The translations under genes were made by a program, and so were the position numbers. DNA of 64,000 nt, from assembly GCA_964582965.1 (NCBI GenBank), contig CAZOUN010000004.1, positions 923 to 64,922 of the forward strand, read 5' to 3'. Of this stretch, positions 29,094 to 45,662 are shown in pieces; positions within the stretch are counted from its first letter, which is position 1, and each line of letters starts with the position of its first letter. The DNA comes from an uncultured Anaerolineales bacterium. GTDB taxonomy: Bacteria > Chloroflexota > Anaerolineae > Anaerolineales > UBA11858. The notes below the pieces were generated by a model. It searched no databases, was not told the DNA's origin, and was given only the letters and a program-made list of their open reading frames with translations.

Positions 29094-30566
29094 CTACTGT
29101 TTGTCAAGATTTAATTCATAGATCTTTACATGGCCTTTCCTGCCTTTGATAATAATTGAATCTAGTTTCGTCAAATTGTAATCATTGGATACAGCTTTAT
29201 AGACTTCATCACCAACCATAATACTGTTCGGCCCGCCAAATGGATTCATTCCTTTAGCGACGTTGACAAGATCCCCGAGGACAGTGAACTCAACTCTTTC
29301 GCTTGTGCCAACGTAACCAACTACCGCCCGGCCTGCTTTGACGCTGAGGCGGAGATTGATCGGTTGATCAAACTCGCTTGAAAGGGATTTCATACGTTTC
29401 AGAATGGCAACCCCGGATTTTACTGCCAGCTTTTTGTGATTTTGTTTCTCGTCGGACATACCAAAGACAGCCAGTACCCCGTCACCCTGATATCTGACCA
29501 CGCCGCTATCACCAAATATAATATCAGTTACACCAAGATAATAGTTATTGAGCATTTTGCCAAACTCTTGAGCCCCCATGGATTCTGCAAGCCCGGTTGA
29601 GTCAGTTATGTCTGCAAATAGGACAGAGACTTTCCTCTCTTTTAGACCGGGCAGGGTTCCGTGAAGATCATAATCTCGGAGTACGTAATCAACTTCTTGG
29701 GGTGAAACAAACCGTTGGAACATTTGCCGTAGACTTTGTTCTTGCTGAACCTTGTTGAGTAAATTAACTCGTTGAATTGTAAGTGCGGCTTGATGGCTGA
29801 TGGCAATTGCGACCTGGAGATCTGTATTTGTGAAGGGGAGGGAATCAGGTCTGGATTTATACATGTAGATTAAGCCAATGATCTCATTTTCAGACATGAT
29901 AGGAACGCATAGGGCGCTTTTGATTTTTAGCAGAGTAGCGCTTTCACTATCCTGAGCTGCATCACTCTGAGCCATATCCGGAATCACTACAGCAGATTTT
30001 TCCGTAATAGCTGATTGGGCGAGGGTTGACGGGAACCCAAAATCTTCCATTTCGTCAAACTGTTCTTTGAGGATCACTTTGCATTTGTCAGCGCCCATCG
30101 CTTGTTTCATCAGGAATGCGATTTCCTCGAGACAGTCGGCAAGGTTCATGACCGTGTTGAGGCGTTCTGAAATTTGGTACATCAGAACTGTGTGGTGGTC
30201 GAGAGCTTCGAGCAAGCGCTCGCGGGTAAACTTTTGGGGACCGCGTACCGTATCAAGCGGTTCGTCAGTGCCGCGAATGACAACGTTAATAGTTGAACTG
30301 CCTATGCGGATCATATCCAGATGTTGAAGCCTGTATGTATACGAGAGGCGGCGGCGGTTGATATAGGTTCCGTTAGTGCTTGTGAGATCTTGCAAAAGAG
30401 CCGTATCGGTACTGCGATTGTAATCAATTCTGGCATGCTGTCTTGATGCGGAAGGCTCGGCAATAACAATGTCATTGTTGGGGTGCCTGCCGATGGTATT
30501 TCCCCCTGGTTTCAGGGTGTATTTCTGAGGTTCCTTACCTGGCACACGAATTGTTAACAACCACAT
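29094..30566 (-). CDS. FHA-GAF-class III nucleotidyl cyclase
   Basis: FHA motifs GRHPNND/SRQH/STNGT, GAF LCVPI..IGLIY, cyclase LFADI..ST, QGDG and FTVLGD.VN. Confidence 0.88.
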   Translation of the reverse strand: MWLLTIRVPGKEPQKYTLKPGGNTIGRHPNNDIVIAEPSASRQHARIDYNRSTDTALLQDLTSTNGTYINRRRLSYTYRLQHLDMIRIGSSTINVVIRGTDEPLDTVRGPQKFTRERLLEALDHHTVLMYQISERLNTVMNLADCLEEIAFLMKQAMGADKCKVILKEQFDEMEDFGFPSTLAQSAITEKSAVVIPDMAQSDAAQDSESATLLKIKSALCVPIMSENEIIGLIYMYKSRPDSLPFTNTDLQVAIAISHQAALTIQRVNLLNKVQQEQSLRQMFQRFVSPQEVDYVLRDYDLHGTLPGLKERKVSVLFADITDSTGLAESMGAQEFGKMLNNYYLGVTDIIFGDSGVVRYQGDGVLAVFGMSDEKQNHKKLAVKSGVAILKRMKSLSSEFDQPINLRLSVKAGRAVVGYVGTSERVEFTVLGDLVNVAKGMNPFGGPNSIMVGDEVYKAVSNDYNLTKLDSIIIKGRKGHVKIYELNLDKQ

Positions 30567-31211: not shown

Positions 31212-33239
31212 TTATAGTTCCTCGTAGCGCTCAATATCAAGACTGAATATTGTCGCTCCTTCGTGGGTGAGTCCCGATGTCGGTTTAGGATCTTTGGAAT
31301 CAATCTTGAGCTTTGAGACATTCGCAGATTCCAGTAATTTTTTAATCTCTAAACGTTTCCCTCTTGGGTGACCAATTAAAACAGTCGCGTTCCGATGGCC
31401 CAGGAATCCACCAGTGCTTGCTATATGAGTCATCGGATAACCATATGGTTCAAGAAGTGCGGATATTTTTTGAAAATCTTTCTCCTGAATGACAATGGTC
31501 ATTAAGACTTCAATATTTTTGATAGTGCGCATCCTCAAAATCTGAACCAGCTCTGATTGATTTTCCATTAATGCGCTATCAACTTCGTGAACGAGACTAG
31601 AGAAAATTTCTTCAGAGATCCGGCCGTCCCGGAGTAATGATCGCAAGGTTGCTCTTTCGCTGGTTAGTACGGCTTTAATTGCTGACTCCAGTTCTTTGGT
31701 TTCAACGTTAGGATGAGCTCGCATGGTTTTGGCAGCAGTGTCAGCCAAGGTGGCTGCGCGAGAAGTGATAGGTTTGGAGAGAACATTCCAGACATGCTTT
31801 GACAGCAATCCATCCTTATACATTGTCTCAAGTTGTATAAAAGCAGTTCTAGCCATTACTAGTCTCGCATTTAAGCTTTCGTATTCTTCCTGGGCAGGAT
31901 TTTTTTCTATTAAACCCATACGGGCAATAAAAGGCTTCATGGTTAATCCCTGAACAAGTAGGGTAAAGAGAACAACACCAAATGCCATTGATTTGATTAT
32001 TGTTCCTTGTTCGCCAAGGCTGGCGGGTAAGCTGAGAGCAAGCGCAAGAGAGATAGCTCCTCTTAATCCACCCCAATATAAAACGTGTTTATAGCGGCGG
32101 GGGATACCAGGGCCGATCCATGACAATCCGTATATGGAAGCAGCTCTAGCTACCAGAACAGCTAGGATCGCCCAGAGGACTGCTTTCCAATCAGTTAATA
32201 AAATGTTCAAATCAATTTGGAGGCCAATCAGGAGAAATACAAATGAATTGGCTAAAAATGCAGCATATTCCCAAAAATTATATACCAAGATGCGAGTTGT
32301 TGGAGTCATTCGTTTCGGTCCAAGATTACCGCTGACAATTCCCGCAGCGACAACTGCTAAAACACCACTAACGTGAAATTGTTCTGCAATAATATATGAG
32401 CCGAATGCCAGTACAGTGGTTAGGGTAGTTTCAATCAACGAATTGTCGATTACGCTGATCGCTAAAGAGATAATTAAACCTAGGAGCACGCCAATAATTA
32501 ACCCTCCACCAGAGACGACGATAAAATTCAGTACACTCTCGCCGAGGTTGAAATATCCCGTGACTGCGATCGTAACCATCATATTGAAGAGAACTATAGC
32601 CGTGCCATCATTAAATAGGCTTTCTCCTTCAAGAAGCATTTGCAGGCGATGAGGTACTCCAAGGGAACGGAAAAGTGCTACGACTGCGACAGGATCAGTT
32701 GCTGCGATCAACGAGCCAAATAATAAGGCTGTTGTTAGGGAAAAATCGGTTCCCCAATAAAGAACACCCCCAACTAAAAATGTAGTTAATAAAACACCGG
32801 GGATTGCCAGGCTTAGAATGGGAGTCAGGTCTTTAAAAAGATCCTTGGCCTTGACCTGAAATGCAGCCTCGAATATCAATGGCGGTACAAGTAATCCTAA
32901 AAAGAGTTCCGGACTGACATTGAGGTTAATTTGGCCAATTAATGCCAAGACAAGGCCAATCACGACCAGCCCAGCAGTGTAGGGTACCCTGAGCCTCTCT
33001 GTGATAATGCCCACCAATGAGGAAATCAATAGTAAGCCAATCACGATTTCGATTATGAGTATGATATTAGATTCTTCCTCAGCTTCGTCCTCGGCGAGGG
33101 GGCCTGGATGAGACTGTCGGAAAGTTATTGCGTCTGAAGCAGAAACATAAGTGAAATTGAGGCCAGCAGCCAAGATGACAACTGTTAAGGCAATCAGGGA
33201 TAAAAGCAAGACATTTTTTATGTAAGATATGTTTTTCAT
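31212..33239 (-). CDS. CPA1 (NhaP/NhaK-like) cation/H+ antiporter with fused C-terminal DarA-like domain
   Basis: ATDPVAV, GESLFNDG and GLRGAISLALAL CPA1 motifs; helical cytoplasmic tail; last ~100 aa (about 31212-31520) contain THIASTGGFLGHRNATVLIG...EGATIFSLDIERYEEL. Confidence 0.9.
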   Translation of the reverse strand: MKNISYIKNVLLLSLIALTVVILAAGLNFTYVSASDAITFRQSHPGPLAEDEAEEESNIILIIEIVIGLLLISSLVGIITERLRVPYTAGLVVIGLVLALIGQINLNVSPELFLGLLVPPLIFEAAFQVKAKDLFKDLTPILSLAIPGVLLTTFLVGGVLYWGTDFSLTTALLFGSLIAATDPVAVVALFRSLGVPHRLQMLLEGESLFNDGTAIVLFNMMVTIAVTGYFNLGESVLNFIVVSGGGLIIGVLLGLIISLAISVIDNSLIETTLTTVLAFGSYIIAEQFHVSGVLAVVAAGIVSGNLGPKRMTPTTRILVYNFWEYAAFLANSFVFLLIGLQIDLNILLTDWKAVLWAILAVLVARAASIYGLSWIGPGIPRRYKHVLYWGGLRGAISLALALSLPASLGEQGTIIKSMAFGVVLFTLLVQGLTMKPFIARMGLIEKNPAQEEYESLNARLVMARTAFIQLETMYKDGLLSKHVWNVLSKPITSRAATLADTAAKTMRAHPNVETKELESAIKAVLTSERATLRSLLRDGRISEEIFSSLVHEVDSALMENQSELVQILRMRTIKNIEVLMTIVIQEKDFQKISALLEPYGYPMTHIASTGGFLGHRNATVLIGHPRGKRLEIKKLLESANVSKLKIDSKDPKPTSGLTHEGATIFSLDIERYEEL

Positions 33240-37546: not shown

Positions 37547-40036
37547 TTAATTGCAAAGAATTTTCAAAATAGCCTGTGTCTCCTGTTTGCCCCCCGACCC
37601 CATTTCTCCGCCTGGCCCGACACAAGCCGGGCAGCCCGTATCGCAGGGGCAGTTATCTACTAAATCTTTAGCTGACAATAATAACTCTTGAAGGCGGTCG
37701 TATAGTGATTTACTGAATCCGATTCCTGCGGGTATCTGCTCGTGGATCAAAACAATGGGGCGATTGTCACCAAAAGGGGATTGGAAATCAGCAAATAGGC
37801 CCAAATCTCCCGAATCACACATCAACAATAGTGGCGCAAGTCCGTGGAGGATATGTCCCAGTCCTCGGATTCCGCTGTTTACCCGGACGATGGCTTCGGC
37901 GCGCTGGTGACAGCGCGGGCATAAACTGATCAGGTTTGAGAGCTGATTTGCATCCTCCAGGGATGAAAAACTACGAAGAGGTTGCTTGTGGTGTATGTGT
38001 AAAACTTCAGAAGGATTGTTTTTTTTACACATCTGGCATCTATATTGATCGCGTTTGAGAACGATATTCCTGATCTGGTCCCATCCAGTTCCGTAATTGT
38101 TTGGACTACTGGACCATAGGCCCTGGTTCCTTATCTGGGATTCTGTATCTTCCGAAAGGGTTAACCAAATACCAGCTGACCGCAATGTCGTTGATGGTAA
38201 ATCCAGGGTATCTCTGCTTAAGACTTCAAAAGGACGCCACTTGATCTTCTTAAAACCTGTTACTTTGGTAGTGAGTTGGATCTCTCCCAAATATTTCATG
38301 CCACCCGGAATAGGATCTTCTTCATGACGTTCTAGTTCCAGATACTTGGATTGTTTTTCCGCTTCAGTGTAGTAATCGACAGAAGTTGGTTGGAGAAATG
38401 CGCGAAATTGTTCCAGGTCTAAATCCCTTACTATATACGGATTCCCAGCATGTAAGTACACTGCTCCAGGATGCACCATCCAATAGGCGCTTTCGATATC
38501 TACTTGACCAATTGAAATTGGTTTTGTGTCCTTCTGCTCAGCTATTAATGTAATTTGCTGAGCGGAGGCATTTCTCAAAGAGATCAGAGCTGCTGGATAA
38601 TCTTCGGCCATCCAGAAATATTTATTATTTGTTTTGTGGATTTTACCGAGAGTTGAAAGTGCATCGAGCAATTCTTCTGTTTCTGATATTGTGAAAGATC
38701 CAAATTTGTTTGATTTTGAAAAGGGTAGTTCGTAAGCTGCGCATTGAATATGAGCAAGGGCTATCAGAAGATTATTGGCATCAATTAATCCGCTTTCAGG
38801 GTTGTTGTTGAATAAATAATCAGGATGCAGAGCAAGGTATTGATCAATAGGGGAAGAAGATGTAACAAGGATAGAAAGAGATGGTTTATCAGATCTTCCT
38901 GACCTACCAGCTTGCTGCCATGTGCCAGCTATTGTTCCAGGATAACCAGCAAGAATTGCTGCATCCAATCCGCCGATATCAATACCCAGTTCAAGGGCAT
39001 TGGTTGCTGTAATACCACGAATTTTTCCGCTTCGTAGGCCAGCTTCAATACGTCTGCGTTCTTGGGATAAATAACCGCTTCTATAGGACTGGACAGGAAA
39101 CGGAGCCAGGATGTCTTTTTCTTTTAATCCCCGAAGCATAAACTCAATTGATCTTCTGGAACGGCCAAAAATGATAGTTTGATTTCCGCTTGCTATTAGG
39201 TCTGAAGACAAGCGGATGGTTTCGTTTTGCATACTTGCACGAAGGCCAAGTTTTGGATCAATTATTGGAGGGTTGTAGATCAAAAAACTTTTCTTCCCAC
39301 GCGATGATGCATCATCTTTGATGAGTATAAGATCCTCTTCAATAAGGGAGGTAGCCAGAGATAATGGATTTCCGATGGTCGCAGATGTAAGAATGAATTG
39401 AGGAGAGGATCCGTAATGGGCAGTGATCCTTTTTAGACGTCTGATCACATTGGCAACGTGGGATCCAAATACTCCCCGGTAAATATGCATTTCGTCAAGG
39501 ATTATAAAATCGAGATTGGAAAAAAATTCAGCCCATTGTATATGATAGGGAAGGATCCCAAGGTGAAGCATATCGGGATTACTAACCACGATCCGTGCAT
39601 TCTGTCGAATATTGGGACGCGCATTTGTAGGCGTATCACCATCATAAGAAGATGATAGGACATCTGGAAAACGTTTTAACCAGTTTAGCTGATCCTGGGC
39701 TAATGCTTTAGTCGGGAATAATAATAGAGAACGGCTAAGGCCGTTTTTGAGGAAACGAGACAGGATCGGCAATTGGTAGGCCAAAGATTTTCCTGATGCG
39801 GTACCCGTTGCTAAAACAACATGCTGTCCGGATTCAACAGCATCCCATATCGCTCTTTGATGTGAGTATAAAGACGAGATATTCATATCGCCAAGAATAT
39901 CTATAATCCTTTGATCGAGACCATCTGGAAAATCCTCGAATTCAGGTTTTCTTTTTGGGATCTCTTGCCAGGCGGCGATATTTGGCGCTATTGCAGGATC
40001 TGTGTTCCAGCGTGCGAGAACTTTATTTATTGACAT
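37547..40036 (-). CDS. Hrq1/MrfA(YprA)-type SF2 DEAH helicase with DUF1998 and an inserted HNH domain
   Basis: GTASGKS, DEMH, SAT, LELGIDIG and QQAGRSGR helicase motifs; terminal CPCDTGCPACVG; insert CQMC...HIHH...N...CPRCH. Confidence 0.9.
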   Translation of the reverse strand: MSINKVLARWNTDPAIAPNIAAWQEIPKRKPEFEDFPDGLDQRIIDILGDMNISSLYSHQRAIWDAVESGQHVVLATGTASGKSLAYQLPILSRFLKNGLSRSLLLFPTKALAQDQLNWLKRFPDVLSSSYDGDTPTNARPNIRQNARIVVSNPDMLHLGILPYHIQWAEFFSNLDFIILDEMHIYRGVFGSHVANVIRRLKRITAHYGSSPQFILTSATIGNPLSLATSLIEEDLILIKDDASSRGKKSFLIYNPPIIDPKLGLRASMQNETIRLSSDLIASGNQTIIFGRSRRSIEFMLRGLKEKDILAPFPVQSYRSGYLSQERRRIEAGLRSGKIRGITATNALELGIDIGGLDAAILAGYPGTIAGTWQQAGRSGRSDKPSLSILVTSSSPIDQYLALHPDYLFNNNPESGLIDANNLLIALAHIQCAAYELPFSKSNKFGSFTISETEELLDALSTLGKIHKTNNKYFWMAEDYPAALISLRNASAQQITLIAEQKDTKPISIGQVDIESAYWMVHPGAVYLHAGNPYIVRDLDLEQFRAFLQPTSVDYYTEAEKQSKYLELERHEEDPIPGGMKYLGEIQLTTKVTGFKKIKWRPFEVLSRDTLDLPSTTLRSAGIWLTLSEDTESQIRNQGLWSSSPNNYGTGWDQIRNIVLKRDQYRCQMCKKNNPSEVLHIHHKQPLRSFSSLEDANQLSNLISLCPRCHQRAEAIVRVNSGIRGLGHILHGLAPLLLMCDSGDLGLFADFQSPFGDNRPIVLIHEQIPAGIGFSKSLYDRLQELLLSAKDLVDNCPCDTGCPACVGPGGEMGSGGKQETQAILKILCN

Positions 40037-44862: not shown

Positions 44863-45162
44863 TCAGCGGGGTTTCTTGATGTGTAAAATTACTTTTCCTA
44901 ATATATCGGAGTAGGGGATTGGACCCAATTTATGGCTGCTGATGCTATTCTCGTGGATTCCGATTACATTCAATGTTTTGGATGCGGGGTTATTCGTAAG
45001 AACGCGTTTTATCAATTGTCCATATTTGGGATGCTCGAATACTACTGTAGCACCCGGTTTAACGGCTTGCGTTATTGAACGGTTAGTTCTAACTATGACA
45101 TAGTCGCCTGGTAAAAAAAATGGTGACAGACTGTTGCCTGTCACCTTGATGATTTTAAGCAT
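44863..45162 (-). CDS. sodX: NiSOD maturation protease (S26-like)
   Basis: V.GNSLSP...GD and LIKRV Ser/Lys dyad; TAATG overlap with sodN. Confidence 0.85.
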   Translation of the reverse strand: MLKIIKVTGNSLSPFFLPGDYVIVRTNRSITQAVKPGATVVFEHPKYGQLIKRVLTNNPASKTLNVIGIHENSISSHKLGPIPYSDILGKVILHIKKPR

Positions 45163-45662
45163 TAGAGAACCGGGTAGACCATCTCCAGTCCCGGAGCATA
45201 AGGAGCTTTTGCTTTCTTGATTTTGATATCTTTGAGTGACCAGAATATTTCAGCAAACTGATTGATCGCCTCTACAAAAGCGAGCCCATTTTCTCTGGTG
45301 GCTGTTTGGCGGCAATTTGATCCTAATTGCATGATCTTGTGAACGAGACCAGGAAGTTCTGGATATTTTTCAACGTGGGCGTCTTTGATAAAATCTCCCC
45401 AGATGACACGTATTTCGTGTTTGGCTTTTTCGGCGTGGTCTTCTTTTACAGCAATATAGCGGGACATTGAGTTTTGGAATTCCACTTTGGATTTATCATC
45501 AACATCGGCCAAATTGGCCATCAGATCCATCATGCGTACAACAGTTAGGGCATTGATCTGTGCTGTGATCGGATCATAAATTCCACAAGGAACATCACAA
45601 TGAGCCTGTGCTTTAGGGAAAGGGCGAAAATGGTCAATAGTCTGGATAAGTTTATAAAACAT
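45162..45662 (-). CDS. sodN: Nickel superoxide dismutase precursor
   Basis: 20-aa leader ending AQA, then Ni-hook HCDVPCGIYDP (His codon at 45600-45602). Confidence 0.95.
   Translation of the reverse strand: MFYKLIQTIDHFRPFPKAQAHCDVPCGIYDPITAQINALTVVRMMDLMANLADVDDKSKVEFQNSMSRYIAVKEDHAEKAKHEIRVIWGDFIKDAHVEKYPELPGLVHKIMQLGSNCRQTATRENGLAFVEAINQFAEIFWSLKDIKIKKAKAPYAPGLEMVYPVL

What the first reader, a model, noticed from the sequence alone, without database searches (positions are those of the whole stretch)
37870..38130. HNH nuclease inserted inside an Hrq1/MrfA-type helicase
Seen: between WLTLSEDTE and the GLGHILH...DUF1998 segment lies an ~80-aa in-frame insert, WDQIRNIVLKRDQYRCQMC...LHIHHKQP...NQLSNLISLCPRCHQ. 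It has His-Asn-His residues and CxxC..CxxC zinc ligands. Established: Bacillus MrfA works with a separate exonuclease, MrfB, in mitomycin-C adduct repair, and DUF1998 helicases also occur in defence systems. No mrfB flanks this gene. Inference: a single-chain helicase-endonuclease for repair or defence, or a captured HNH homing domain.
Basis: partly seen in the sequence, partly recalled or inferred. Interest (0 to 1): 0.65.

Follow-up and report, generated by a model that had tools for sequence, protein, structure and literature searches.

The report
Repair helicase with built-in HNH nuclease
A DNA-repair helicase of the MrfA type carries a small, apparently active DNA-cutting (HNH) domain spliced into its tail; nearly every MrfA-carrying member sampled of the bacterial class Anaerolineae has it, always together with the partner exonuclease MrfB, so it may supply the unidentified cutting step of this repair pathway.

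Summary
Window 37547-40036 (- strand) encodes an 829-aa orthologue of B. subtilis MrfA/YprA (PDB 6ZNP, E 1e-177). An 82-aa in-frame insert (residues 639-720, window 37877-38122) is a Cys4-zinc HNH domain (Pfam PF01844, above threshold). It sits between the CON element and the DUF1998/MZB domain.

The insert is not sporadic or mobile. In a 301-genome Chloroflexota sample it was found in 24 of 28 genomes of the same order and 5 of 6 others of the class. It was found in 1 of 267 genomes of other classes, whose MrfA proteins show a clean gap there. Its length is fixed at 97 aa in all 22 sampled slices from the window's order; deeper branches add a loop of up to about 10 residues. It evolves at the same rate as the helicase body. 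The motif CxxC..HH..P..N..CxxCH is kept in 217 of 221 long homologues, and three of the four exceptions were not inspected. AlphaFold gives a beta-beta-alpha core whose best structural matches are almost all HNH nucleases.

A 411-aa MrfB homologue lies on another contig. It is the immediate downstream gene in 36 of 81 related loci. In 61 class genomes, all 42 with HNH-MrfA also have MrfB.

Best reading: a translocation-coupled nickase added to a pre-existing MrfAB excision-repair pair. It is a new variant of a known kind and was not described in the papers searched.

The parts
37547..40036 (-). Whole gene: 829-aa MrfA/YprA-type SF2 DNA helicase with an inserted HNH domain (P0001)
   Evidence: ORF and translation. 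PDB 6ZNP MrfA, E 1.3e-177. AF2 pLDDT 87.3, pTM 0.86. Foldseek top hit 6ZNP, TM 0.69/0.75.
39371..39865 (-). RecA1 (DEAD/DExH) domain, residues 58-222, with Walker A GTASGKS and motif II DEMH
   Evidence: Pfam PF00270, E 7e-29. T79, S81, G82, K83, D181, E182 and H184 are invariant in 107 homologues.
38891..39202 (-). RecA2 (Helicase_C), residues 279-382, with motif VI QQAGRSGR
   Evidence: Pfam PF00271, E 2e-14. Q374, Q375, G377, R378, G380 and R381 are invariant.
38570..38785 (-). Winged-helix domain (WHD_HRQ1), residues 418-489
   Evidence: Pfam PF22982, E 1.5e-9.
38153..38569 (-). OB fold plus CON beta-sheet ('canopy'), residues about 490-628
   Evidence: Colinear with MrfA residues 491-630 (domain limits from PMC7797055). 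The AF2 model shows long beta strands at 494-627.
37877..38122 (-). The 82-aa insert (residues 639-720): a complete small Cys4-zinc HNH endonuclease domain
   Evidence: Clean gap in HNH-less MrfAs. Fixed length in all 22 sampled slices from the window's order. W641, Y648, G649, W652, D663, C667, C670, H682, H683, P686, A696, N701, L702, C706, C709, H710 and E714 are invariant. Insert GC is 0.467 against 0.435 for the gene.
37898..38038 (-). HNH catalytic core, residues 667-713. Zinc ligands are C667/C670/C706/C709. H683 is the likely general base, with N701 and H710 completing the motif. Predicted strands 680-683 and 702-705, helix 707-717.
   Evidence: Pfam PF01844, 37.3 bits, and 22 of 22 sampled inserts hit PF01844. 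Secondary structure. Foldseek hits to the insert model are almost all HNH nucleases. Profile against PDB sequences: 5H0M 4.6e-8, IscB 7.8e-6, McrA 1.2e-3. Residue roles are assigned by me from the Pfam HNH consensus.
37619..37861 (-). MZB/DUF1998 zinc-binding domain, residues 726-806, with four-Cys cluster C796/C798/C802/C805
   Evidence: Pfam PF09369, E 1.2e-16. Aligns to MrfA 648-734. The four cysteines are invariant.

Best explanation
The gene is the Anaerolineae version of the DNA-repair helicase MrfA (YprA/SftH/Hrq1 family). In the ancestor of the class, a complete small Cys4-zinc HNH endonuclease of the phage/McrA/IscB type was inserted in frame at the CON-MZB junction, into an MrfA that already worked with the 3'-5' exonuclease MrfB. 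The insert has been inherited vertically ever since with its active site intact. The inferred mechanism is as follows. The motor translocates 3'-5' on ssDNA. In B. subtilis MrfA, the CON and MZB elements help form the funnel through which DNA enters at the leading edge. The HNH would therefore sit at the front of the motor, where it could nick DNA at or ahead of a blocking lesion or junction. MrfB, which strictly co-occurs, would then degrade the freed strand 3'-5'. On this reading the HNH supplies, in cis, the incision step that published MrfAB models leave unassigned. Shown here: the domain's identity, boundaries, conservation, predicted fold, distribution and MrfB linkage. Inferred: nuclease activity, which strand and which side are cut, coupling to ATP-driven translocation, and the lesion repaired.
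For: Identity: MrfA 6ZNP matches at E 1e-177 over the whole body plus MZB. The full-length AF2 model has pLDDT 87 and Foldseek TM 0.69-0.75 to MrfA. Helicase motifs and the four MZB cysteines are invariant.

HNH: the Pfam hit is above threshold and 22 of 22 sampled inserts hit PF01844. H682, H683, N701, H710 and the four cysteines are invariant in 107 homologues. The motif is intact in 217 of 221 long homologues, including deep branches. A beta-beta-alpha arrangement is predicted in two models. All but a handful of the 50 listed Foldseek PDB hits are HNH nucleases, including the Gme nickase, GVE2 HNH, McrA, Cap5, ZRANB3 and Cas5-HNH.

Selection and vertical descent: the insert has a fixed length in the window's order. 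Insert and body have the same mean pairwise identity (57%), with Spearman 0.72 between them. A tree built without the insert separates HNH-plus from HNH-minus proteins with support 1.0.

Distribution: the insert is in 24 of 28 same-order and 5 of 6 same-class genomes, but in 1 of 267 genomes of other classes, although most of those (about 180 of 267 by my count) have an MZB helicase. All named relatives are Anaerolineales, Leptolinea, Anaerolinea, Ardenticatenales, Thermoflexales or Roseilinea.

Partner: an MrfB homologue (8UN9, E 1e-38) lies on another contig. It is the immediate co-directional downstream gene in 36 of 81 loci. In 61 class genomes, 42 of 42 with HNH-MrfA have MrfB, and only 1 of the 19 without it does (Fisher p 1.4e-14, not corrected for phylogeny). 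HNH-less MrfA next to mrfB is common in other Chloroflexota classes, so the HNH was added to an existing pair.

Open incision step: the published model has MrfA unwinding and MrfB degrading, with no nuclease assigned to create the entry point, and the authors' genetic screen found no further candidates (10.1101/426304; PMC11194089). Funnel geometry comes from PMC7797055.
Against: No activity data exist for any member. I had no model coordinates, so the position of the HNH active site relative to the DNA path is inferred from the insertion point, not measured. HNH-region pLDDT is only 63-85 in the full model, and the linker at 711-720 is low. Foldseek E-values for the 97-aa model are weak (8e-3 to 0.2). 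B. subtilis and most other lineages run MrfAB without any fused endonuclease, so an incision nuclease may not be needed at all. UvrC is present in this genome, so the HNH does not compensate for a missing NER nuclease. The substrate (MMC-type adducts or something else) is unknown for these mostly anaerobic bacteria.
Confidence: 0.55

Rival explanations
1. The HNH makes the helicase a structure-specific endonuclease for branched DNA, such as stalled or reversed forks, D-loops or interstrand-crosslink unhooking. This would be analogous to human ZRANB3 (SNF2 motor plus HNH) or to yeast Hrq1 working with the Pso2 nuclease, rather than a nickase for mono-adduct excision.
For: The ZRANB3 HNH domain is among the structural matches (5MKW, TM 0.56). 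Hrq1, the eukaryotic family member, acts in ICL repair by stimulating a nuclease (10.1101/773267 and PMC13586618, abstracts listed). The insert sits at the duplex-facing funnel (inferred from PMC7797055).
Against: Strict co-occurrence and an operon with MrfB tie it to the MrfAB excision module. In B. subtilis that module does not contribute to ICL repair. Nothing in the sequence distinguishes nicking from structure-specific cleavage.
Confidence: 0.15
2. The HNH fold is kept as a non-catalytic zinc-binding or DNA-clamping module. This would resemble the extra zinc-binding modules that accumulate in the canopy of other YprA-family helicases, tuning DNA binding or canopy movement without cutting.
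For: Bell et al. report many small Zn-binding inserts in the OB-CON-DUF1998 region of YprA relatives (PMC12458937). The four cysteines are invariant.
Against: The catalytic histidines H682, H683 and H710, and N701, are not zinc ligands, yet they are invariant in 107 homologues, and the motif is kept in 217 of 221 long homologues over deep divergence. A purely structural module would be expected to lose them in some lineages.
Confidence: 0.12
3. The protein is an anti-phage or anti-plasmid helicase-nuclease effector, like DruE, DrmA/B or ARMADA YprA proteins.
For: YprA-family helicases are the core of several defence systems, and these often carry fused nucleases (PMC12458937). PADLOC models for DruE, DrmA, BrxH and ZorE give partial hits.
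Against: The PADLOC hits cover only the generic helicase core or the HNH. Similarity to repair MrfA is far higher. Neighbours are housekeeping genes: RelA/SpoT, ABC exporters, an antiporter. The own genome has one copy, and the insert matched once in all but one of the sampled genomes. It is inherited vertically across a class. There is no methyltransferase, PLD or BrxA-like insert. The fixed partner is the repair exonuclease MrfB.
Confidence: 0.06
4. The insert is a currently selfish element: an in-frame homing endonuclease or mini-intein-like parasite of the helicase gene.
For: The closest free-standing relatives are small phage HNH proteins, some annotated as homing endonucleases, at 33-38% identity over nearly the whole insert.
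Against: At 82 aa it is too short for a Hint splicing domain, and no Hint/intein family appeared in the Pfam scan. The position is identical throughout, and the length is constant within the order, with only a short extra loop in deeper branches. There is no presence/absence polymorphism among MrfA-bearing relatives. It co-evolves with the host protein. Its GC content is not anomalous.
Confidence: 0.02

Closest known systems
Bacillus subtilis MrfA (YprA), PDB 6ZNP/6ZNQ/6ZNS, with its partner exonuclease MrfB (PDB 8UN9)
   Same: The domain order is the same: NTR-RecA1-RecA2-WH-OB-CON-MZB with a four-Cys zinc site. The match is E 1e-177 and Foldseek TM is 0.69-0.75. An MrfB homologue co-occurs and is often the next gene in an operon.
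   Different: An 82-aa HNH nuclease domain is inserted between the short helix after CON and the first long MZB helix (MrfA residues about 635-647). In this genome mrfB is unlinked. Function in mitomycin-type adduct repair is untested here.
Human ZRANB3 (SNF2-family translocase with a C-terminal HNH endonuclease domain, PDB 5MKW)
   Same: An SF2 ATP-driven DNA motor and an HNH nuclease sit in one polypeptide. The HNH domains match structurally. From my own knowledge, ZRANB3 is an ATP-dependent, structure-specific nickase.
   Different: The motor family is unrelated (SNF2 dsDNA translocase against a DExH ssDNA 3'-5' helicase). In ZRANB3 the HNH is terminal and not inserted. The fusions arose independently. 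This is an analogy, not homology of the fusion.
Small phage-type Cys4 HNH endonucleases (Geobacillus virus E2 HNH, PDB 5H0M) and the IscB and McrA HNH domains
   Same: These are the best sequence and structure matches of the insert: 5H0M at E 4.6e-8, IscB 9K2Z at 7.8e-6, McrA 6GHC at 1.2e-3. The CxxC..H..N..CxxCH layout is the same. The phage proteins are about the size of the whole insert.
   Different: Those are free-standing proteins or parts of RNA-guided or modification-dependent nucleases. Here the domain is embedded in a repair helicase and fixed in a bacterial class.
Nuclease-bearing defensive YprA-family helicases (DruE of Druantia III, ARMADA, TALON; Bell et al. 2025, PMC12458937)
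   Same: They belong to the same helicase family (OB-CON-DUF1998 canopy) and combine it with a nuclease.
   Different: Their nucleases are C-terminal PLD, Vsr/PD-(D/E)xK or RNase H-like domains. They carry BrxA-like, beta-barrel and MarR-like inserts and sit in defence operons. This protein belongs to the repair (MrfAB) branch and has an internal HNH, which that survey does not mention.

Membership tests
MrfA/YprA/SftH/Hrq1 family (DUF1998-containing SF2 DNA helicases), repair branch | SF2 DExH helicase core with intact motifs I, II and VI | tested here: met
   Pfam DEAD and Helicase_C. GTASGKS, DEMH and QQAGRSGR are present and invariant in 107 homologues.
MrfA/YprA/SftH/Hrq1 family (DUF1998-containing SF2 DNA helicases), repair branch | WH-OB-CON-MZB accessory array with the four-cysteine DUF1998 zinc cluster | tested here: met
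   PF22982 and PF09369 hits. C796, C798, C802 and C805 are invariant. The protein is colinear with 6ZNP, with Foldseek TM 0.69-0.75.
MrfA/YprA/SftH/Hrq1 family (DUF1998-containing SF2 DNA helicases), repair branch | Association with the DEDDh exonuclease MrfB (MrfAB sub-branch) | tested here: met
   An MrfB homologue is in the genome (8UN9, E 1e-38). It is adjacent in 36 of 81 loci. Co-occurrence is 42 of 42.
MrfA/YprA/SftH/Hrq1 family (DUF1998-containing SF2 DNA helicases), repair branch | 3'-5' ssDNA translocase/helicase activity and a role in mitomycin-type adduct repair | not testable with these tools
   This needs biochemistry and genetics.
HNH / His-Me finger endonucleases (Pfam PF01844) | Profile match above the curated threshold | tested here: met
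   37.3 bits against a cutoff of 21.4 in the full protein. 42.1 bits for the isolated insert, and 22 of 22 sampled homologous inserts match.
HNH / His-Me finger endonucleases (Pfam PF01844) | Catalytic His (general base), Asn and metal-binding His, plus the CxxC..CxxC zinc site of this subclass | tested here: met
   H682, H683, N701, H710, C667, C670, C706 and C709 are invariant. The motif is kept in 217 of 221 long homologues and in deep branches.
HNH / His-Me finger endonucleases (Pfam PF01844) | Beta-beta-alpha-metal fold | tested here: met
   This rests on predicted models only. Strands 680-683 and 702-705 and helix 707-717 appear in the full model and in the insert-only model (pLDDT 80). 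Almost all listed Foldseek PDB matches are HNH nucleases, with TM 0.45-0.58 and weak E-values.
HNH / His-Me finger endonucleases (Pfam PF01844) | Divalent-metal-dependent DNA cleavage | not testable with these tools
Inteins / in-frame homing endonuclease elements | Hint splicing domain flanking the endonuclease, and sporadic presence/absence among close relatives | tested here: not met
   The insert is only 82 aa, and no Hint/intein family appeared in the Pfam scan. It is fixed across the class at one site and co-evolves with the host protein.
Defensive YprA clades (DISARM, Dpd, Druantia, ARMADA, BRIGADE, TALON) | Conserved defence operon partners (methyltransferase, BrxHII, PLD/Vsr/NERD nuclease) and the BrxA-like, beta-barrel and MarR inserts described by Bell et al. 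| tested here: not met
   Neighbours are RelA/SpoT, ABC exporters, PGA_cap and an antiporter. Recurrent neighbours in 81 loci are MrfB, ABC exporters and RelA/SpoT, plus clusters I did not annotate. PADLOC gives only generic helicase or HNH partial hits. The architecture equals repair MrfA plus HNH.

The most novel reading that the evidence does not exclude
HNH-MrfA plus MrfB form a self-contained two-protein excision-repair machine. One polypeptide verifies damage by stalling its 3'-5' motor at a bulky adduct. It then uses the HNH at its DNA-entry funnel to incise the tracked (or displaced) strand. This would be a one-chain functional analogue of UvrB plus UvrC, and it would reveal the incision logic that is missing from the Bacillus MrfAB model.
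Probability: 0.3. Interest if true: 0.65.

Novelty: new variant of a known kind. Interest (0 to 1): 0.5.

Why it matters
The MrfAB pathway (Burby and Simmons 2018/2019; Roske 2020; MrfB structure 2024) is a UvrABC-independent excision route. Its published model has a helicase and a 3'-5' exonuclease but no assigned enzyme for making the DNA end that both need. A whole bacterial class that has hard-wired a conserved, apparently active nickase-type domain into MrfA is a natural experiment on this gap. It offers a tractable protein for asking where and when incision happens relative to the motor, and cultured, partly thermophilic sources exist (Anaerolinea thermophila, Leptolinea tardivitalis). 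It also adds an internal-HNH architecture to the repair branch of the YprA family, which the 2025 family-wide survey did not list. Helicase-nuclease fusions are common, so this is an interesting variant and not a new principle.

Tried and rejected
(1) Intein or active homing element: rejected on size, absence of a Hint domain, fixed position and co-evolution.

(2) HNH as a replacement for a lost MrfB: rejected, because MrfB is present and strictly co-occurs.

(3) HNH as compensation for a lost UvrC: rejected, because uvrC is present at 644 bits.

(4) Defence island: rejected on neighbourhood and PADLOC results.

(5) Occurrence outside Chloroflexota: the 80 best of 514 genome loci and all named database hits are Chloroflexota. 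The other 434 loci were not shown. Ten divergent 50%-cluster representatives carried no organism names. Rare occurrences elsewhere are therefore not excluded.

(7) Foldseek with the full-length model returned only helicases, as expected. A separate insert-only model was needed.

(8) Earlier-findings look-up by sequence found nothing.

(9) The first MAFFT run timed out and was repeated with faster settings.
Full report
**What is there.** The window has one long ORF at 37547..40036 on the minus strand. Pfam finds five domains:
- DEAD, residues 58-222
- Helicase_C, 279-382
- the Hrq1-type winged helix, 418-489
- HNH (PF01844), 667-713, at 37.3 bits against a gathering cutoff of 21.4
- MZB/DUF1998, 726-806

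NCBIfam's best model is the YprA-type 'DECH_helic', matched over residues 24-631. The HNH region separately resembles the IscB and ZorE HNH domains. Against PDB sequences the protein matches B. subtilis MrfA/YprA (6ZNP) at E 1.3e-177. There are two colinear blocks: query 18-629 with MrfA 19-634, and query 723-810 with MrfA 648-734. About 93 residues therefore stand where MrfA has about 13.

**Boundaries of the insert.** I fetched MrfA genes from other Chloroflexota classes, plus an HNH-less paralogue from one Anaerolineae genome, and aligned them with HNH-bearing proteins. The HNH-less proteins show one clean gap equal to residues 639-720 of this protein, which is window 37877-38122. The gap lies between the short helix that follows the CON beta-sheet (629-637) and the first long helix of the MZB domain (722-738) (secondary structure).

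**The insert as an HNH domain.**
- In 107 full-length homologues (48-84% identical to the query), the residues W641, Y648, G649, W652, D663, C667, C670, H682, H683, P686, A696, N701, L702, C706, C709, H710 and E714 are invariant.
- A strict pattern for CxxC..HH..P..N..CxxCH is met by 217 of 221 long homologues from two searches. The one exception I inspected differs only in spacer length. The other three were not inspected.
- Deep Anaerolineae branches keep the motif and add a loop of up to about 10 residues.
- All 22 sampled inserts from the window's order are exactly 97 aa in the slice used, and all hit PF01844.
- AlphaFold2 on the 107-sequence alignment gives a confident model (pLDDT 87.3, pTM 0.86). 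It has strand 680-683, strand 702-705 and helix 707-717, which is the beta-beta-alpha arrangement. The HNH part scores pLDDT 63-85.
- An insert-only model (pLDDT 80) shows the same elements.
- Its Foldseek matches in the PDB are almost all HNH nucleases: McrA, the Geobacillus-virus E2 HNH, Cap5, ZRANB3 HNH, Cas5-HNH, the Gme nicking enzyme, T4 endonuclease VII and Cas9. TM-scores are 0.45-0.58 and E-values are weak, from 8e-3 upward.
- A sequence profile of the insert finds 5H0M (4.6e-8), an IscB (7.8e-6) and McrA (1.2e-3).
- In phage genomes, 251 records encode small HNH proteins that are 33-38% identical over nearly the whole insert.

The insert therefore corresponds to a complete small HNH endonuclease.

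**Distribution.**
- The first homologue search returned 120 clusters, all with the same DEAD-HelC-WHD-HNH-MZB architecture. Named members are Anaerolineales or Chloroflexi.
- An exhaustive HMMER search of 1.84 billion cluster representatives with residues 600-829 found 71 clusters at E<=1e-30. The listed full-length hits among them align across both the HNH and the MZB. It found 6644 at E<=1e-3, and the weaker listed hits align to the MZB part only.
- In species-representative genomes, 514 loci encode a relative of the insert. The best 80 are all Chloroflexota: Anaerolineales, Anaerolineaceae, Leptolinea (including L. tardivitalis YMTK-2 and the complete genome of HRD-7), Anaerolinea thermophila and Ardenticatenales.
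- A search seeded from a deep branch adds Thermoflexales and Ca. Roseilinea.
- In an even sample of 301 Chloroflexota genomes, the insert lies next to the MZB in 24 of 28 genomes of the same order and 5 of 6 other genomes of the class. It does so in only 1 of 267 genomes of other classes, and that one is a contaminated MAG.
- By my count about 180 of those 267 genomes have MZB helicases, in ORFs of roughly 755-800 aa.
- Three of the four same-order genomes without the insert have no MZB helicase at all. The fourth has only weaker MZB matches.

**Vertical inheritance.** A tree of the helicase body with the insert columns removed separates HNH-plus from HNH-minus proteins with support 1.0. Pairwise identities of the insert and of the rest of the protein correlate (Spearman 0.72) and have the same mean (57%). 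The insert's GC content (0.467) is close to the gene's (0.435). This is the pattern of one ancient insertion inherited vertically under purifying selection. It is not the pattern of a mobile homing element or an intein.

**The partner MrfB.**
- The window's neighbours are housekeeping genes: RelA/SpoT, two ABC exporters, PGA_cap, an antiporter and Ni-SOD.
- The genome nevertheless has a 411-aa RNase_H_2/DEDDh protein on another contig. It matches the MrfB crystal structure 8UN9 at E 1.3e-38.
- Clustering all ORFs in the 80 related loci plus the window's own region shows that a 404-425-aa protein is the immediate, co-directional downstream gene in 36 of 81. This protein is 35-40% identical to the genome's MrfB. 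Most intergenic gaps run from a few bases of overlap to about 50 bp, which is typical of operons.
- The window's closest relatives instead share the synteny ABC-ABC-helicase/RelA.
- In 61 genomes spread over the class, 42 have HNH-MrfA and 43 have MrfB. All 42 HNH-MrfA genomes have MrfB, and 18 genomes have neither. Fisher p is 1.4e-14, although these counts are not phylogenetically independent.
- In other Chloroflexota classes, MrfB frequently sits right after an HNH-less MrfA (coordinates).

The HNH was therefore added to an existing MrfAB pair and did not replace MrfB. UvrC is also present in this genome.

**Mechanism (inferred).** Roske et al. (PMC7797055) show that ssDNA enters MrfA through a funnel formed by RecA2, OB, CON and MZB at the 5' end of the bound strand. 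For a 3'-5' translocase that end is the leading edge. They also propose that the displaced strand runs along the MZB. An HNH inserted at the CON-MZB junction should therefore sit at the front of the motor, next to the duplex or lesion being approached. The Burby and Simmons model has MrfA unwinding the adducted strand and MrfB degrading it. It names no enzyme that makes the required DNA end, and the authors' screen found no further factors (10.1101/426304). The 2024 MrfB paper places the 3' end leaving MrfA at the MrfB active site (PMC11194089). My best explanation is that the Anaerolineae HNH is a translocation- or stall-coupled nickase that provides or completes incision for MrfB-dependent excision.

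I could not determine which strand is cut, on which side of a lesion, or whether cutting precedes loading.

Three alternatives remain: a ZRANB3-like structure-specific nuclease, a non-catalytic zinc module, and a defence function. The last two are disfavoured. The catalytic residues are invariant, which argues against a purely structural module. The context is housekeeping and the inheritance vertical, which argues against defence.

**Comparison with what is known.** The protein passes every testable criterion for the MrfA/YprA repair branch and for the Cys4 HNH family. It fails the criteria for inteins and for the defensive YprA clades.

I searched full text for MrfA, DUF1998, YprA, SftH and Hrq1 together with HNH. 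I then searched within the family papers. The 52,000-protein YprA survey (PMC12458937) lists C-terminal PLD, Vsr and RNase H nucleases and several zinc modules, and mentions HNH only in its reference list. The MrfA structure paper does not mention HNH. A search of the SftH paper for insertions, nucleases and Chloroflexi showed nothing about such an insert. None of the papers I opened describes this insertion. The domain combination is, however, implicit in precomputed Pfam annotations. I therefore rate it a new variant of a known kind and moderately interesting.

Noticed in passing
own genome, other contig: G000:C2:5857-7089 (-) = L002:1051-2286 (-): A 411-aa MrfB-like DEDDh exonuclease (PF13482; PDB 8UN9, E 1e-38) is unlinked from mrfA here. 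It sits between an aminotransferase gene and a phosphoglycerate kinase gene. In family f3 of the same order and in many other Anaerolineae it is the gene directly after HNH-mrfA.
   Followed up: yes
own genome, G000:C129 = L094:758-2473 (+): The genome's only other match to the HNH insert profile is a 571-aa group II intron protein with reverse transcriptase, maturase and HNH domains, on a 5.5-kb contig.
   Followed up: partly
L086 (G210:C6) and L092 (G210:C1): One Anaerolineae-class genome carries both an HNH-bearing MrfA (851 aa) and an HNH-less MrfA paralogue (774 aa). The paralogue groups with the MrfAs of other classes, which suggests a second copy acquired or retained separately.
   Followed up: partly
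L089 (G015:C541), a genome of another Chloroflexota class: This is the only HNH-MrfA found outside the class in the 301-genome sample. It lies on a 28-kb contig of a MAG with 8% contamination and 640 contigs. It could be bin contamination or a lateral transfer.
   Followed up: no
L084-L089 (deep Anaerolineae branches): Outside the order Anaerolineales, the HNH insert carries an extra loop of up to about 10 residues (consensus about GYIPGENxxY) between the HH..P..R segment and the AN..NL segment. The catalytic residues are unchanged.
   Followed up: partly
window 31212-33239 (-): A Na+/H+ exchanger is fused to a C-terminal cyclic-di-AMP receptor (DarA-like) domain. This is already the subject of an earlier finding of this scan.
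   Followed up: no
window 29094-30566 (-): A 490-aa protein combines FHA, GAF and adenylate/guanylate cyclase domains.
   Followed up: no
window 45162-45662 (-): A nickel superoxide dismutase (Sod_Ni, E 3e-45) is present in a member of a lineage usually regarded as anaerobic.
   Followed up: no
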